Source: a virus
Taxonomy: Duplodnaviria; Heunggongvirae; Uroviricota; Caudoviricetes
IMG/VR virus record: IMGVR_UViG_2703718837_000001
Length of the DNA stretch: 49,704 bases
Direction: 5' to 3' (one strand)
Under the pieces are notes generated by a model. That model ran no database searches. It saw only the letters and a list, made by a program, of their open reading frames with translations, and was not told the origin of the DNA. Positions 17,471-41,077 of the stretch are shown piece by piece. The stretch's first letter is position 1; each line of letters starts with the position of its first letter. The translations under genes were made by a program, and so were the position numbers.

Positions 17471-17487
17471 ATTACACTAATAAATTT
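17471..17487 (+). promoter_or_regulatory. P1 C1-repressor operator-like site
   Basis: ATTACACTAATAAATTT (15/17 to consensus), between the IS left end and the 3' end of the methyltransferase gene. Confidence 0.4.
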
Positions 17488-17488
17488 A

Positions 17489-20400
17489 TTATAGCAATAT
17501 TGCTATAACGTCATGAGCAACACCACGAGTGTCTCCCTTACAAGACACAGAACGTCTGGCAAAAAGAGGTTCCACTCTGAAGCCACTGTCCTGATAAAGT
17601 TCTCTGATGTTTGGCGCGCCACTGTTAGTAATGAGAACCTTTGCACCTCGGCGATGAGCATCCGTCAACAGAGACACCAGGCGTTTTTGCTCTTCAAACT
17701 TAAAGTCATGACCGGAATAGTTCGTGAACCCCTCTGTATTGGGGAGCGGTTCATACGGCGGATCGCAAAAGATGACATCTCCTTCTCCGGCAGCTTCAAT
17801 CACCGCTGCAAAATCACCGCATACAAACTCAGACCGCCCTTCCGCACCGAGGAAGGCTTCCATCTCCTGTAATGGAAAATGCGTAGACTTATACTTCCCA
17901 TACCCGACATTGAACTCACCGGCCTGGTTGTAGCGCGTCAATCCATTAAAACAATGTCGGTTCAGGAACAAAAACGCCGCTGCGCGATGTAAATCATCAT
18001 AGACTTGTTTGTTAAACGCATTCCGTACTGCCAGGAATCCCTCCTGGGTGTTGTAGTCCAGGAAGAAACGATGTGCCAGAGTGATAAGTGAATGCGCCTC
18101 GCGTTGCAGAGTCTTGTAAAAGTTAATCAGGTCAGCATTCACATCATTTAGCAGATTTTCCTGATATCCGGCATTCATGAAGACAGCTCCGCCACCAACG
18201 AAAGGTTCAATCAGGCGCTTCCCTTCTGGCAAATAGCGAAAGATTTGTTCCAGAACACCAAATTTTCCACCAGCCCATTTGAATATGGGCCGTTCGAATT
18301 CTGCCGCTGGTTTAACCTTTCGCTCTTTTGTTTCACTCCCTTCTTTTTGCCGACATGCAGCCTTAGTAATCCGATCGCCAATCCAGCGCATTACTGGTAT
18401 TGCCATACTATTTCCGATCGCTTTGTAACGCGGTCCGTCAGCTGCAAGCATCGCGGCCTCTTCTTCGTTTAAATCAGGATAGTTATTGCGAAGGTATGCT
18501 AGTTCATCTGAAGAAACTTTTTTACGCTTTCCCGTAGGGATCAACGTATGCCAATCAGGAAAACCTTGCAGCCTTTCACATTCGACAGGGGTAAGACGGC
18601 GCATTCTATCGTCGCCGAGCAATACAATTGGTGCTTCATGGTTACATGTCAAAGTTGGTGCCGAATTATCGGTTTTTATCTCAGCCCCTCCTTGCCCATG
18701 TGCCATGGCAATTATGTTTGTATCATCGCAAGATCTGATAGCGATGTTTGAAGTATATCTGGTAGTTTCCTTCCCCTCGCCTCTGCTCGGCGCAATATCC
18801 CGGCGCTCGCCTTCGAACTCAAAAAGTACCGTTGCGGGATCGAGGTCTGTTCGAGCACTTGCGACAACAAACACGCGTCGGCGTCGTTGTGCCACTCCGA
18901 AGTATTGGGCATCAAGGATTCTCCAGGCCACCTTTCGCTGCGGTCCATAAATACAACCACACTGCGGCCACTTTGGAGCATGGCAACCGGTTTTGCCATC
19001 CCACCGCCAGAACGCGTTACTTTTTCCTGATTCAGGTCGATCACCTGGTTCAAATGGCGCATCTTCTCCAGCCAATCCGGCAAGGAAACATCCGAAGGCG
19101 TTATCTGCCGATGACAAGACCCCTGGGACATTTTCCCAGACGATAACGGCTGGTTTGAGAAATGACTCAGCCCGTTTGTCGTCAATTGCATTTGCAAGCT
19201 CCACATACTTTAAAGTTAGCGCGCCACGCTCATCATCAAGCCCACCACGTAATCCAGCGATACTGAATGCCTGACAGTTATGGACCACCGCACCATTGAG
19301 GATATAGGAATGATCACCTTCGACTTCTATGTTGTATACAGTATCTAGGCCTACCGATTTAAACTCTTTGACTGTTCGTAAAAGCATTCCATGAGCCAAT
19401 CTTGATTTACGTGACAATTTCTGCGGGCAGATTGTTACCTGATAATAATTCCGTTGATTTACCACGCGATCCTCAATCACTTTTTTGGGCTCAACTTCAA
19501 TAAAGCTGACCGAAGAAACATAACCACAAGTCTGTGACAACTCCGCAACGCCCCAAGCAAGCGCAGGACTAACACTATTAATTCTAAATCCCGCTTTACC
19601 ACTTGGTGTCCCATCAGTATCAAGATAGCCTTGTAAAAACACATGACGCAATGGATGCGACATCACCCATGCAGGGATACGCTTAGCATGGCTTAACTCG
19701 CCAAAATGTTCATTAAGCCAATTGGCATAACACGTATCATTCAAGGTTACTTTGATGCTCCCTCGGATTTCGCTTGCCACGGAAAATATGTTTTCTGGTA
19801 TGCGGCAATGAAACTTTCTCAATTTCTGGCAATTTATGCCAAAAACAACCGCCTTCTTAGATTTACCTCTCCATCTCCTAATATATCCATCGCCAACATA
19901 AGCGCCCGCAAGATACATAGCCTGTTCTTCAGACAAGAACCGAGAACAAATATCTGGAGATGCAATATTGAAATTAGTTAGAGCACACCATTGATATCCC
20001 GGCATATCACATGCTGCTCGCCATTCCGGTTCAGACAACAACTCTCTCTTAAAATATGTGCCATTTTTCCGGGTGTTTTGGGCTTTCCACCGAACCGCCA
20101 GGAAGGGATGGTCATTGGTTGTTCTTATACCTAAAGGCTGCCCAACGGCATTAAGTAACCCCGTATTAGCTATTTTTGAACCAACTCTTTTTACTTGTTG
20201 TAACCGCCCGAGATGACTGACTACGTAATCGCCAGGGCAAACATCTTCTATTGGTTTATAACCATTTTTACAAAGAACCATATGCCCCGCGGTAAAACAT
20301 GGTGTCCCTCCCACCAGCACATCAGGGGCTTCAATTTCTCCGGCCTGGACTTTTTGGGCGAGTTTTGTCATGTCGCCAAGGTTCGCGACATGGGGCCAGC

Positions 20401-21780: not shown

Positions 21781-21797
21781 ATATTTATTAGAGCAAT
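21781..21797 (-). promoter_or_regulatory. P1 C1-repressor operator-like site heading the minus-strand methyltransferase operon
   Basis: Reverse complement ATTGCTCTAATAAATAT (16/17 to consensus). Confidence 0.6.
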
Positions 21798-36951: not shown

Positions 36952-36968
36952 AAAATTATTAGAGCAAA
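36952..36968 (-). promoter_or_regulatory. P1 C1-repressor operator-like site upstream of kilA-repL
   Basis: Reverse complement TTTGCTCTAATAATTTT (15/17 to consensus). Confidence 0.55.
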
Positions 36969-39067: not shown

Positions 39068-39084
39068 AAATTTATTAGAGCAGG
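39068..39084 (-). promoter_or_regulatory. P1 C1-repressor operator-like site heading the immI-like operon
   Basis: Reverse complement CCTGCTCTAATAAATTT (15/17 to consensus). Confidence 0.55.
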
Positions 39085-39365
39085 TGAGTGTCGTGCAATA
39101 GATGTATTATTTGTGATGAAAAATAATGCAGAGGGATATTGTTACTTTAAGATGGATATCAATAATCGATACATAAATTAAGTTAGCAATAAACTATTAA
39201 CTTAAGAAATAATGCAGATGGTGAACTTATCTCTGACTTTTCAGCTATACACAATAAGTTAGGGATAGCTTATAAAAAGTTGATTAATTGATATAAGTCA
39301 ATGGGAGTATTCTTGTTTACTTTCCGTTCTCGTGGTAACTTCTCGCCGGTTTTTGTTTTTCTGGG

Positions 39366-39887
39366 ATGATTCTTATGTCTAAAAAGTATACTTTATGCGC
39401 TCTTGTTGTATCTGCAATTCTTCTTTCTGGGTGTCAATCTAGCGGTGCTGATTATGCTGCCGATGTTTATGATACCGCTCAATTGAATTCGAAGCAGGAA
39501 ACAAAGACAGTCAATATTATCTCTGTGCTTCCAGCTAAAGTGAAAGTTGATAATAAAGCTAATAAAGAAGCGGCACAGACATTTGGTGCGGTACTGGGAG
39601 CTGTTGCTGGGGGCGTTGCCGGTTATAATGTTAAAGGCACATCGACACTGGGTGCTGTAGCTGGCGGTACTGGTGGTGCGGCTCTTGGTGCAGCGACTGG
39701 TTCTTTGGTTAGTGATAAAACAATTGTTGAAGGTGTTTCACTGACTTATAAAGAAGGAACTAAGGTGTTCACTTCAACTCAAGTTGGTAAAGCATGCCAG
39801 TTTACAACGGGGCTTGCTGTGCTTATTTCAACTAAAGATAATGAAACTCGAATTCAGCCAAATGCTACTTGTCCAGAAAAGAAATAA
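39366..39887 (+). CDS. Lipoprotein with glycine-zipper region
   Basis: Lipobox LLSGC after a hydrophobic signal; Gly/Ala-rich GAVLGAVAGGVAG...GAVAGGTGGAALGAATG zipper; AT-rich. Confidence 0.7.
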   Translation: MILMSKKYTLCALVVSAILLSGCQSSGADYAADVYDTAQLNSKQETKTVNIISVLPAKVKVDNKANKEAAQTFGAVLGAVAGGVAGYNVKGTSTLGAVAGGTGGAALGAATGSLVSDKTIVEGVSLTYKEGTKVFTSTQVGKACQFTTGLAVLISTKDNETRIQPNATCPEKK

Positions 39888-39890
39888 TTT

Positions 39891-40430
39891 ATGAATAAAA
39901 TTATTTTATTTCTAATCTTTTCTACGTTTAGTGTAGGCACTGCCTTGGCTAACTCGTTGCAAAGTCAAATTGCTGCTATTGCTCAAGCGGAAAATGAAGG
40001 GCGAGCTAAAGAGCAGCAAGCTGAGGATGCCAGAAAAGAACTTATTCGCCAACAAGCACAAGCTGAACGTATTAGAAGAGAAAAAGCAGCATCTGCCGCT
40101 GCTGCACGCGAAAAACAGCGTGTTGCTGCAGAAAATGAACGTAGAGCGAAACGAGAAGCCGAGCTAGCAAATGACAAGAAGCGAGATCAAGCTTATGAGG
40201 ATGAGCTTCGCAAGCTGCAACTCGAAAGCATGAAACTCGAACTGCAAGCAAAAGCGGCTCGTGTCCAGCGAGAAAACGATTTTATAGAGCAGGAGTTGAA
40301 GGAGAGAGCAGCTAAGACAGATGTAATTCAGTCTGAGGCTGATGCAAATAGAAATATTTCTACAGGAAGTAAAGATTTACTGCAAAGCGAAGGAAAAGCT
40401 AGAGAGAAGAAAGCTAGCAGTTGGTGGTAG
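39891..40430 (+). CDS. Secreted coiled-coil protein
   Basis: Signal peptide MNKIILFLIFSTFSVGTALA; long charged helical region rich in E/R/K/A/Q. Confidence 0.6.
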   Translation: MNKIILFLIFSTFSVGTALANSLQSQIAAIAQAENEGRAKEQQAEDARKELIRQQAQAERIRREKAASAAAAREKQRVAAENERRAKREAELANDKKRDQAYEDELRKLQLESMKLELQAKAARVQRENDFIEQELKERAAKTDVIQSEADANRNISTGSKDLLQSEGKAREKKASSWW

Positions 40431-40486
40431 TAATCACTACGATTGCGAGCATACTGTCACAAATGACAACTCGTAGAATCTGTTAA

Positions 40487-41077
<591 letters not shown>

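What the first reader, a model, noticed from the sequence alone, without database searches (positions are those of the whole stretch)
39100..40430. AT-rich envelope pair (glycine-zipper lipoprotein plus secreted coiled-coil protein) after the immunity region
Two plus-strand genes with export signals (lipobox LLSGC; cleavable signal peptide) lie in an AT-rich stretch with an inverted repeat TTAAGTTA...TAACTTAA at about 39178-39210. Envelope-targeted phage proteins here are good candidates for superinfection exclusion or receptor masking.
Basis: inference. Interest (0 to 1): 0.45.

Follow-up and report, generated by a model that had tools for sequence, protein, structure and literature searches.

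The report
Phage copy of yfgH-yfgI envelope pair
A P7-like phage-plasmid carries its own diverged copy of the bacterial yfgH-yfgI outer-membrane pair where phage P1 keeps its superinfection-exclusion genes; this makes exclusion a reasonable but untested idea, and the genes belong to a known family.

Summary
Both genes are real. 39375-39887 encodes a lipoprotein (lipobox LSGC, Gln at +2). 39891-40430 encodes a signal-peptide protein predicted as one long helix. The window is a P7-like member of the P1 family, and the genes are P7 upf50.5 and upf50.0.

The lipoprotein is 68% identical to E. coli YfgH and homologous over its full length to the ring-forming outer-membrane lipoprotein SlyB. The partner is a DUF5384 protein, 47% identical to YfgI. 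The two genes are adjacent in 78 of 80 species loci, and dN/dS is 0.04-0.10.

The 1.38-kb cassette (39083-40458) lies between the C1 operator of c4 and late promoter LPsit. P1 has simABC in exactly that slot. The other common cassette types in the slot also start with signal-peptide proteins.

The inverted repeat exists at 39178-39205. It is within chance expectation (12% of shuffles) and is not conserved in diverged alleles. The AT-richness is modest (40% against 46.5%).

Best reading: a mobile paralogue of the yfgHI outer-membrane module, carried as accessory cargo by the phage-plasmid. Superinfection exclusion is supported only by position. There is no homology to Sim, and the resemblance to TraT is sub-threshold. 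This is a new member of a known kind, of modest interest.

The parts
39068..39084 (-). C1 repressor operator Op(c4). It is the left boundary of the cassette: the last 2 bp of the operator already differ from P1.
   Evidence: The P7 annotation maps here. It matches the operator consensus with 2 mismatches, one of 8 such sites in the window against 0.39 expected. Homology to P1 ends at 39082.
39083..40458 (.). Replaceable 1376-bp cassette that occupies the slot held by simABC in P1.
   Evidence: Alignments with P1. GC is 40.3% against 46.5% for the window. At least 99% identical copies occur in 164 of 5426 complete E. coli genomes, 169 of 173 places on plasmids. 166 PLSDB plasmids carry it at full length.
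39139..39166 (+). Candidate sigma-70 promoter for the pair (TTGTTA-16-AATAAT). This is a consensus match only.
   Evidence: 9 of 12 positions match. The number of such sites in the region is no higher than in shuffles, so the evidence is weak.
39178..39205 (.). It is probably fortuitous.
   Evidence: Searches confirm it is present; 11.7% of shuffles contain one; not conserved in alleles L014 and L016.
39287..39302 (.). Dyad ATTGA-N6-TCAAT, conserved in three diverged alleles of the cassette leader. It is a better candidate regulatory site than the reported repeat.
   Evidence: both arms are identical in the window, L014 and L016, while the spacer varies. Only three sequences, so the evidence is tentative.
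39375..39887 (+). YfgH-type, SlyB-superfamily glycine-zipper outer-membrane lipoprotein (P7 Upf50.5). An alternative upstream ATG lies at 39366.
   Evidence: 68% identical to E. coli YfgH. The family profile matches the SlyB structure 7ojf at E=9.7e-10 over the full length. Foldseek's top hit is SlyB13-BamA, E=4e-6, TM 0.55/0.65. All family-invariant residues are present. dN/dS is 0.06-0.08.
39891..40430 (+). YfgI-type secreted all-helical protein (DUF5384; P7 Upf50.0). It is probably translationally coupled to the lipoprotein gene.
   Evidence: Pfam PF17358 E=3e-43, 147.8 bits against a cutoff of 25. 47% identical to E. coli YfgI. AlphaFold2 predicts a single helix with pLDDT 88. A DUF5384 gene lies directly downstream of the lipoprotein gene in 78 of 80 species loci.
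40460..40479 (+). Late promoter LPsit, just inside the conserved backbone at the right edge of the cassette. It is followed by pmgC/tubA at 40511-41077.
   Evidence: P7 annotation transferred by coordinates. Homology to P1 resumes at about 40459. PHROG match to PmgC.

Best explanation
The two genes are a mobile, diverged paralogue of the bacterial yfgH-yfgI operon. A P7-type P1-family phage-plasmid carries them as a self-contained accessory cassette in the sim hotspot.

Shown:
- Gene 1 is a Lol-sorted lipoprotein of the SlyB/YfgH family.
- Gene 2 is a signal-peptide protein of the YfgI/DUF5384 family.
- The two genes are almost always adjacent and are under strong purifying selection.
- The cassette lies outside the late operon and has no C1 operator of its own.

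Inferred from the family:
- The lipoprotein inserts its glycine-zipper helical hairpin into the outer membrane. It oligomerises into SlyB-like rings that corral outer-membrane proteins and lipid.
- The partner would be about 24 nm long if it is one straight helix (158 mature residues). It has a conserved N-terminal motif, a variable charged spacer and a conserved C-terminal half ending in Trp-Trp or Trp-Phe, and it works with the ring from the periplasmic side.
- Expressed in the lysogen on top of the host's own yfgHI, the pair hardens or reorganises the outer membrane.

The benefit to the phage-plasmid is a more robust or altered host envelope. Interference with incoming phage could be a by-product, but it is not demonstrated.
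For: Identity of the element: 99.1% to P7, genes upf50.5 and upf50.0.

Family of gene 1:
- 68% identity to YfgH.
- Profile against SlyB 7ojf, E=9.7e-10 over the full length.
- Foldseek top hit SlyB13-BamA.
- Invariant GxxxG glycines and the Cys141/Cys166 pair are retained.

Family of gene 2: PF17358 at 147.8 bits and 47% identity to YfgI.

The chromosomal pair is named yfgH/yfgI and is present in 5421 of 5426 complete E. coli genomes, in the context ppk-ppx-pdeF-yfgG-yfgH-yfgI-guaA.

Coupling of the two genes:
- 78 of 80 species loci have DUF5384 directly downstream. One of the two exceptions has a short divergent version.
- The two genes are 3 nt apart in the window.

Constraint: dN/dS is 0.04-0.10 with dS above 1 between alleles.

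Accessory status:
- P1 lacks the pair altogether and has sim in its place.
- The sim genes are non-essential in P1 (PMC10695390).
- The slot is one of eight variable regions of P1-like phage-plasmids (PMC9603915).
- A different phage-like element of about 102 kb in Salmonella carries a 62% allele.

Family function from the literature:
- Loss of yfgH increases outer-membrane permeability and SDS/EDTA sensitivity.
- YfgH co-purifies with BamA and OmpF/C/A and is modelled as SlyB-like rings (bioRxiv 10.64898/2025.12.22.696046).
- yfgH shows aggravating interactions with lptD (PMC3219608).
Against: - Nothing has been measured for the phage copy. No paper mentions upf50.5 or upf50.0.
- The monomer model of the lipoprotein is poor (pLDDT 57). 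Ring formation is inferred from SlyB and from others' AlphaFold3 models of YfgH.
- The role of YfgI is essentially unknown. The only phenotype is nalidixic-acid sensitivity (PMC3536626), and the YfgH preprint never mentions yfgI.
- Essentially every E. coli host already has yfgHI, so a simple dosage benefit is not an obvious reason to keep a 68%/47% diverged copy. That leaves room for a new function.
- Expression in the lysogen is assumed. The promoter is only a weak consensus match.
Confidence: 0.6

Rival explanations
1. The pair is a dedicated superinfection-exclusion module, a functional analogue of P1 Sim. The outer-membrane ring lipoprotein and its long periplasmic helical partner would block tail-tube penetration or DNA passage across the envelope, or would enclose and mask outer-membrane protein receptors. 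Lysogens would then exclude related or unrelated phages.
For: - The cassette sits in exactly the slot of simABC, with clean junctions at Op(c4) and LPsit.
- The other common cassette types in the slot also begin with signal-peptide proteins: SimA/B/C, the Ro157c2YLVW pair, and the type IV cassettes.
- The cassette is next to the immunity region, is AT-rich and is polymorphic. Its alleles have dS above 1 on a backbone that is 95-99% identical.
- The host already has yfgHI, so a diverged second copy suggests a new function.
- Outer-membrane lipoproteins are a recurrent solution for exclusion. TraT is one documented example (PMC11733297); T5 Llp and Cor are examples from my own knowledge.
- YfgH binds OmpF/C/A and BamA (preprint).
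Against: - No homology to SimC.
- No PADLOC hit.
- TraT scores below its Pfam threshold (22.1 against 31 bits) and is absent from the profile search. Foldseek gives E=0.18-0.55 and TM about 0.2.
- All family-invariant residues are kept, and dN/dS is low and uniform. That fits conserved housekeeping-type biochemistry better than an arms race.
- The family is mostly chromosomal, and it is core in Escherichia.
- From my own knowledge: P1 and P7 are classically heteroimmune and plate on each other's lysogens, so a single-copy cassette does not obviously exclude P1. The same is true of single-copy sim.
Confidence: 0.25
2. The cassette is neutral or nearly neutral hitch-hiking cargo. A recombination hotspot picked it up and it brings no specific benefit to phage or host.
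For: - The slot is a generic exchange hotspot that also accumulates unrelated cargo, as in L014, L193 and L248.
- The host already has the same system.
- No phenotype is known.
Against: - Both reading frames are intact.
- Copies in 164 E. coli genomes and 166 PLSDB plasmids are at least 99% identical.
- Several anciently diverged alleles in the same slot keep every invariant residue, with dN/dS of 0.04-0.10.
- About a quarter of the surveyed P1-like contigs carry the cassette.
Confidence: 0.1
3. The two proteins serve the lytic cycle, as virion or tail components or as lysis accessories such as spanin-like proteins.
For: - The genes sit just upstream of the tail genes pmgC/tub.
- One deposited record (phi456) labels them 'minor tail protein' and 'tail tip protein'.
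- A lipoprotein paired with a periplasmic helical protein superficially recalls spanins.
Against: - The pair lies upstream of late promoter LPsit, outside the late operon.
- P1 and most P1-like phages lack the pair and are fully viable.
- The homologues are core chromosomal genes with no phage context.
- There are no PHROG structural hits. The labels are automated and inconsistent: PHROG 1277 calls the lipoprotein a 'DNA methyltransferase'.
- Unlike an i-spanin, the partner has a cleavable signal peptide and no membrane anchor.
Confidence: 0.03

Closest known systems
E. coli YfgH-YfgI (chromosomal yfgHI operon; srgIL in S. Typhi)
   Same: - Same two-gene architecture and gene order.
- 68% and 47% amino-acid identity.
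- Same lipobox with Gln at +2, the same glycine zipper, the same conserved Cys pair, and the same DUF5384 C-terminal half ending in an aromatic residue.
- YfgH is located in the outer membrane and stabilises it (bioRxiv 10.64898/2025.12.22.696046).
   Different: - It is carried on a phage-plasmid in the sim slot rather than between yfgG and guaA.
- The upstream region is unrelated, so regulation presumably differs.
- The chromosomal pair is SdiA-regulated in S. Typhi (PMC11619404).
- The hairpin tip and second zipper helix (residues about 83-113) are the most diverged part.
SlyB (PhoPQ-regulated outer-membrane lipoprotein; PDB 7OJF/7OJG)
   Same: - Homologous over the full length (profile E=9.7e-10).
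- Same predicted order of elements: lipid anchor, beta strand, glycine-zipper helical hairpin, C-terminal beta domain.
- SlyB forms rings around BamA and around lipid nanodomains.
   Different: - Only about 25% identity.
- SlyB has no DUF5384 partner gene.
- YfgH and SlyB are not interchangeable, and their suppressors differ: clsA for yfgH, the Mla pathway for slyB (preprint).
P1 SimA-SimB-SimC (superimmunity / superinfection exclusion)
   Same: - Identical genomic slot between Op(c4) and LPsit.
- All products carry signal peptides.
- AT-rich and non-essential.
   Different: - No sequence similarity.
- Three genes rather than two.
- SimC has only a faint OB-fold-like Pfam hit.
- An exclusion phenotype is documented for Sim only.
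TraT (F-plasmid surface-exclusion lipoprotein; PDB 9FS5, 9E2V)
   Same: - Both are outer-membrane lipoproteins with a helical membrane-inserted segment that form ring-like oligomers.
- Both are chromosomal genes that mobile elements have co-opted (PMC11733297).
- There is a weak Pfam hit over residues 56-142.
   Different: - The hit is below the Pfam gathering score (22.1 against 31).
- TraT was not found by the family profile.
- Foldseek TM is about 0.2 with rmsd 14 A.
- TraT is about 225 aa and has no partner protein.

Membership tests
SlyB/YfgH glycine-zipper outer-membrane lipoproteins | Lipoprotein signal peptide with a lipobox Cys and a non-Asp residue at +2 (Lol sorting to the outer membrane). 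| tested here: met
   MSKKYTLCALVVSAILLSG-C-QSS, read directly from the sequence. Cys20 is invariant in 52 homologues.
SlyB/YfgH glycine-zipper outer-membrane lipoproteins | Glycine-zipper (GxxxG) helical hairpin. | tested here: met
   G71, G75, G79, G101 and G105 are invariant. Helices 61-85 and 92-111 appear in the model. The Pfam Gly-zipper 2TM hit is below threshold for this sequence (17.6 against 24.2 bits), but the family is recorded for many close homologues.
SlyB/YfgH glycine-zipper outer-membrane lipoproteins | Full-length homology to the solved SlyB structure. | tested here: met
   phmmer E=1e-4. Family profile E=9.7e-10, positions 9-163 against SlyB residues 6-154 of 155. Foldseek E=4.3e-6, probability 1.00, TM 0.55/0.65. 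The model's pLDDT is only 57.
SlyB/YfgH glycine-zipper outer-membrane lipoproteins | Membership of the YfgH subfamily: high identity to E. coli YfgH and the conserved C-terminal Cys pair. | tested here: met
   68% identity over 167 aa with no gaps. C141 and C166 are invariant. RefSeq names the chromosomal gene yfgH.
SlyB/YfgH glycine-zipper outer-membrane lipoproteins | Outer-membrane localisation and ring-shaped homo-oligomers that enclose outer-membrane proteins or lipid. | not testable with these tools
   Only monomer prediction was available. The property is inferred from SlyB cryo-EM entries and from AlphaFold3 models of YfgH in bioRxiv 10.64898/2025.12.22.696046.
YfgI / DUF5384 (PF17358) | Match to the Pfam model above its gathering score. 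| tested here: met
   147.8 bits against a cutoff of 25, E=3e-43, profile positions 4-145 of 145. 47% identical to E. coli YfgI.
YfgI / DUF5384 (PF17358) | Cleavable signal peptide and no membrane anchor (a periplasmic protein). | tested here: met
   MNKIILFLIFSTFSVGTALA|NS, read from the sequence. N-terminal hydrophobic segments are present across 57 homologues. No signal-peptide predictor was run.
YfgI / DUF5384 (PF17358) | Encoded immediately downstream of a yfgH-type lipoprotein gene. | tested here: met
   The intergenic distance is 3 nt here. 78 of 80 species loci are paired.
P1 Sim superinfection-exclusion locus | Sequence homology to SimC, the protein sufficient for the Sim phenotype. 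| tested here: not met
   BLASTP E=5.0 and 0.044 on short chance segments.
P1 Sim superinfection-exclusion locus | Position between the c4 operator and the pmgC late promoter, with exported products. | tested here: met
P1 Sim superinfection-exclusion locus | A block of incoming phage after adsorption (the exclusion phenotype). | not testable with these tools
   Needs the infection assays described under next steps.
TraT surface-exclusion lipoproteins (PF05818) | Match to the family model above its gathering score, or clear similarity of fold. | tested here: not met
   Pfam 22.1 bits against a cutoff of 31. No TraT hit at E<=1 with the family profile. Foldseek E=0.18-0.55 and TM 0.17-0.26.
Known anti-phage defence systems (PADLOC-DB 2.0) | Match to any defence-protein model. 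| tested here: not met
   No hit at E<=0.1 for either protein.

The most novel reading that the evidence does not exclude
The yfgHI-type cassette may be an unrecognised envelope-level superinfection-exclusion system that is allelic with Sim. A SlyB-like outer-membrane ring, together with a helical partner long enough to span much of the periplasm (about 24 nm), would gate or obstruct phage tail penetration or DNA transit, or would sequester outer-membrane protein receptors. If so, the core chromosomal yfgHI pair might also modulate phage entry. The P1 sim slot would then be a diversity hotspot of mechanistically different exported exclusion modules.
Probability: 0.25. Interest if true: 0.6.

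Novelty: new member of a known kind. Interest (0 to 1): 0.33.

Why it matters
If the best reading holds, this is a temperate phage-plasmid moving a bacterial outer-membrane maintenance module between hosts. The cassette is present in about 3% of complete E. coli genomes and about a quarter of the P1-like elements surveyed.

It also provides a natural second-copy experiment for the poorly understood YfgH-YfgI pair. The near-universal adjacency of the two genes argues that YfgI is a functional partner of YfgH, which the only YfgH study held here does not address.

The finding shows as well that the P1 sim slot is filled mostly by mutually exclusive cassettes that encode exported proteins. That makes it a compact place to look for envelope-level exclusion or lysogenic-conversion functions. 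The practical link is that P1-like phage-plasmids spread resistance genes (mcr-1, blaCTX-M), so their host-range and exclusion determinants are of interest.

Tried and rejected
- **Inverted repeat as a regulatory site.** A shuffle test gave 11.7% and the repeat is not conserved in diverged alleles, so it was rejected as evidence. The leaders of chromosomal and other loci share no motif with this one.
- **TraT kinship.** Pfam is below threshold, the profile search is negative and Foldseek is marginal. It is kept only as an analogy.
- **Homology to SimC.** None.
- **PADLOC defence models.** No hit.
- **PDB relatives of DUF5384.** None with the sequence or the profile.
- **Other phages carrying the pair.** The 68%-identical hits in TL-2011b and in about 60 IMG/VR contigs are the host yfgHI at prophage edges. 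They are artefacts.
- **L010 as an SSU5-like phage-plasmid.** Megablast found no match in the phage or plasmid collections. PHROG hits show only that it is phage-like.
- **A PLD/cardiolipin-synthase-like neighbour** (seen in L008/L009), as a possible link to the clsA suppressors of yfgH. It is not conserved: 0 of 80 loci.
- **Classical coiled coil for DUF5384.** The heptad signal is weak.
- **Literature on upf50.5/upf50.0 and DUF5384.** No papers. The P1 genome paper (PMC523184) is not held. The SJ46 paper does not discuss these genes.
Full report
**What is in the sequence**

Two adjacent plus-strand ORFs are present as reported.

- The first runs 39366/39375-39887. The second ATG (39375) is the likelier start. 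A GGGA (AAGGA in the allele L014) lies 8-10 nt upstream of it, and homologues begin M-x-x-K-K.
- Its N-terminus, MSKKYTLCALVVSAILLSG-C-QSS, is a lipoprotein signal with lipobox L-S-G-C. Gln at +2 implies sorting to the outer membrane by the established Lol rule.
- The second ORF, 39891-40430, starts 3 nt after the first one's stop codon. It has a classical signal peptide, MNKIILFLIFSTFSVGTALA|NS.
- The inverted repeat TTAAGTTA-N12-TAACTTAA is at 39178-39205.

**Where the window comes from**

The region is 99.1% identical to phage P7 and to RCS47, SJ46, JL22 and phi456. It occurs at full length in 166 PLSDB plasmids. The window is therefore a P7-type member of the P1 family of phage-plasmids.

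In P7 the two genes are annotated upf50.5 ('outer membrane lipoprotein of unknown function') and upf50.0 ('membrane protein of unknown function'). Both carry notes of similarity to E. coli proteins.

- To the left lie ant1/ant2, icd, the c4 RNA and the C1 operator Op(c4). The operator is at window 39068-39084.
- To the right lie the late promoter LPsit (40460-40479) and pmgC/tubA, tub and pmgB.

**The slot**

Alignment with P1 shows that homology stops at 39082, inside the last 2 bp of Op(c4). It resumes at about 40459, at LPsit. Between the same two landmarks P1 carries simA-simB-simC, the superimmunity locus. The pair is therefore a clean cassette replacement of sim.

I collected P1-like contigs from IMG/VR by the operator-flank sequence and extracted the DNA between the operator and pmgC. 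Among 57 slots, counting the window, P1 and Ro157c2YLVW references:

- 20 carry a Ro157c2YLVW-type cassette with two signal-peptide proteins.
- 14 carry simABC.
- 14 carry the cassette seen here, and one more carries a diverged allele of it plus extra cargo.
- 6 carry a fourth type.
- The rest are singletons.

Apart from one singleton (L193), every cassette type begins with a protein that has an N-terminal signal peptide. P1 simA is merely the 5' remnant of the long secreted protein that heads the commonest type.

The literature already lists simABC as one of eight variable, low-GC regions of P1-like phage-plasmids (PMC9603915). The sim genes are non-essential in P1 (PMC10695390).

**What the proteins are**

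*The lipoprotein.*
- It matches the solved structure of E. coli SlyB over its whole length. phmmer gives E=1e-4. A 52-sequence family profile gives E=9.7e-10.
- An AlphaFold2 model has low confidence (pLDDT 57). Its order of elements is strand, two helices (61-85 and 92-111), then a beta domain. Its top Foldseek hit is SlyB13-BamA, with E=4e-6 and TM 0.55/0.65.
- Database homologues number in the hundreds. [quoted passage not shown]

*The partner.*
- It is a clear DUF5384 protein (147.8 bits).
- It is predicted as a single helix over residues 3-178 with pLDDT 88. It has no relative in the PDB.
- The mature protein is 158 aa with pI 9.1. It is 19% Ala and rich in Glu, Arg, Lys and Gln.
- Its heptad periodicity is weak. 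'Coiled coil' is not established.
- It has a conserved N-terminal motif (SLQxQ[LI][SA]A[VI]AQAE), a variable charged spacer and a conserved C-terminal half. It ends in Trp-Trp or Trp-Phe.
- As one straight helix it would be about 24 nm long. This figure is my arithmetic at 0.15 nm per residue.

**The chromosomal counterpart**

The commonest E. coli homologue lies between ppk-ppx-pdeF-yfgG and guaA-guaB-xseA. RefSeq names the two genes yfgH and yfgI. They are present in 5421 of 5426 complete E. coli genomes, always on the chromosome.

The window's proteins are 68% and 47% identical to them. Every residue that is invariant across the family is retained, including the GxxxG glycines and a Cys141/Cys166 pair.

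- In a scan with one genome per species, 78 of 80 loci have a DUF5384 gene directly downstream on the same strand. These loci span Enterobacterales, Pasteurellaceae, Pseudomonas, Vibrionaceae, Acetobacteraceae and others.
- One of the two exceptions has a shortened divergent version. The pair is therefore a conserved two-gene unit.
- Between the window's allele and other alleles in the same P1 slot (87% and 82% identity) or in a chromosomal island, dN/dS is 0.04-0.10 with dS above 1.
- Both genes are thus under strong purifying selection. The alleles are far older than the backbone, which is 95-99% identical.

**What is known about the family**

- Deleting yfgH increases outer-membrane permeability and SDS/EDTA sensitivity. 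It also aggravates depletion of LptD or BamA.
- YfgH fractionates with the outer membrane, co-purifies with BamA and OmpF/C/A, and is modelled as SlyB-like rings.
- Suppressors of the deletion map to clsA (bioRxiv 10.64898/2025.12.22.696046).
- Earlier genetics linked yfgH to lptD and to outer-membrane integrity (PMC3219608).
- A yfgI mutant is sensitive to nalidixic acid (PMC3536626).
- In S. Typhi the pair (srgIL) is SdiA-regulated (PMC11619404).
- The YfgH preprint never mentions yfgI.
- No paper in the library mentions DUF5384 or upf50.5/upf50.0.

*The inverted repeat is not informative.*
- 11.7% of dinucleotide shuffles of the 283-bp leader contain an equivalent repeat.
- The window holds 73 such repeats.
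- It is missing from the diverged alleles in the same slot.
- Those alleles do share an ATTGA-N6-TCAAT dyad at 39287-39302. With only three sequences, this is a lead and no more.

*AT-richness is modest.* The cassette is 40.3% GC against 46.5% for the window, which puts it in the lowest 9% of equal-sized windows. Only the leader is markedly AT-rich, at 31.5%.

*Regulation.* No C1 operator lies inside the cassette, and the pair is upstream of LPsit. This fits expression that is independent of both prophage repression and late transcription. The only promoter candidate is a weak consensus match.

**Interpretation**

The identity of the pair is secure. It is a mobile paralogue of yfgH-yfgI, with a SlyB-superfamily lipoprotein and a DUF5384 partner.

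The mechanism I commit to is the family's mechanism. The lipoprotein inserts its glycine-zipper hairpin into the outer membrane and forms rings that enclose outer-membrane proteins and lipid. The long helical partner acts with it from the periplasm. The pair thereby changes or hardens the lysogen's outer membrane. This part is inferred, not shown.

The exclusion hypothesis rests on position. The cassette is in the same slot as sim, the other common occupants of that slot are also exported proteins, and the host already has its own copy. That evidence is suggestive but indirect, and four things count against it:

- There is no homology to Sim, and the resemblance to TraT is sub-threshold.
- No known defence model matches.
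- Sequence constraint looks like that of a housekeeping protein.
- From my own knowledge, P1 and P7 plate on each other's lysogens.

I put exclusion at about 0.25.

A virion or lysis role is very unlikely. The pair is outside the late operon, is absent from P1, and has core chromosomal homologues.

The database labels are annotation errors. PHROG 1277 calls the lipoprotein a 'DNA methyltransferase', and phi456 labels the two genes 'minor tail protein' and 'tail tip protein'.

**Distribution**

- The exact cassette (at least 99% identity) is in 164 of 5426 complete E. coli genomes, with 169 of 173 places on plasmids.
- Among deposited phages it is confined to P7-type P1 relatives.
- The apparent exception, TL-2011b, ends in host yfgF'-yfgG-yfgH-yfgI, so its hit is a prophage-boundary overshoot. 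About 60 IMG/VR contigs of roughly 40 kb carry the 68% copy at a contig end and are most simply read the same way.
- A Salmonella contig of about 102 kb carries a 62% allele. It has a Rep3-type replication gene and PHROG matches to exonuclease VIII, a tail fibre and an endolysin. This indicates a second, independent capture by a phage-like element. That element matches nothing in the phage or plasmid collections by megablast.

**Verdict**

They belong to a known family, and P7 has carried annotations for them since its deposition. Three points go beyond the existing annotation:

- the explicit assignment to YfgH/SlyB and YfgI;
- the near-universal pairing of the two genes;
- the demonstration that the cassette is allelic with sim, in a slot filled mostly by cassettes for exported proteins.

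Novelty: a new member of a known kind. Interest is modest (0.33). It would rise to about 0.6 if an exclusion phenotype were found.

Noticed in passing
L002 4753-4911 (P1 simA) compared with L012 882-1529 (Ro157c2YLVW gp35): P1 simA (52 aa) is the truncated 5' remnant of a secreted protein of 215-224 aa. That longer protein heads the commonest cassette type in the same slot. The first ~45 residues are identical, signal peptide MRKLLLPLLFMAGTVNA included.
   Followed up: partly
L011 (phage TL-2011b, JQ011317 41.3-44.8 kb); L115, L118-L176 (IMG/VR contigs): The record's last 3.5 kb is host chromosome (yfgF fragment, yfgG, yfgH, yfgI). About 60 IMG/VR prophage contigs of roughly 40 kb likewise carry the 68%-identical yfgH copy at a contig end. 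These are best read as prophage-boundary overshoots next to an integration site by guaA, not phage cargo. They probably seeded PHROGs 1277 and 1094.
   Followed up: partly
window 39375-39887 and 39891-40430: Public labels for these genes are wrong or inconsistent. PHROG 1277 and several RefSeq phage records call the lipoprotein a 'DNA methyltransferase'. The phi456 record calls the two genes 'minor tail protein' and 'tail tip protein'.
   Followed up: yes
window 39287-39302: The dyad ATTGA-N6-TCAAT in the cassette leader has both arms conserved in three alleles that are otherwise diverged (window, L014, L016). It may be a regulatory site.
   Followed up: partly
L014 3032-7298; L015: Some P1-like plasmids carry an 87%-identical allele of the pair together with extra cargo in the same slot. 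The extra ORFs are 107 aa, 118 aa, a YfjT-family protein of 137 aa and an SH3_3 protein of 389 aa. L248 adds a 419-aa membrane protein.
   Followed up: no
L010 (Salmonella contig ABFBLR010000019, about 102 kb): A phage-like element carries a 62% allele of the pair beside its replication gene. It has a Rep3-type replication gene and PHROG matches to exonuclease VIII, a tail fibre and an endolysin-like protein. It has no megablast match in the phage or plasmid collections.
   Followed up: partly
window 40464-40510: An 18-nt imperfect inverted repeat (89% complementary) spans the LPsit late-promoter and leader region just upstream of pmgC. It is conserved in P1.
   Followed up: no
window 3757-3773, 3806-3822, 7430-7446, 17471-17498, 21781-21797, 36952-36968, 39068-39084: Eight matches to the C1 operator consensus with at most 3 mismatches, against 0.39 expected. 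They include an overlapping divergent pair at 17471-17498. This fits a P1-family immunity network.
   Followed up: no
L008 4104-5378; L009: A PLD-superfamily gene lies next to the pair in one lineage. That was intriguing because clsA mutations suppress a yfgH deletion. It is not a conserved neighbour: 0 of 80 species loci.
   Followed up: yes
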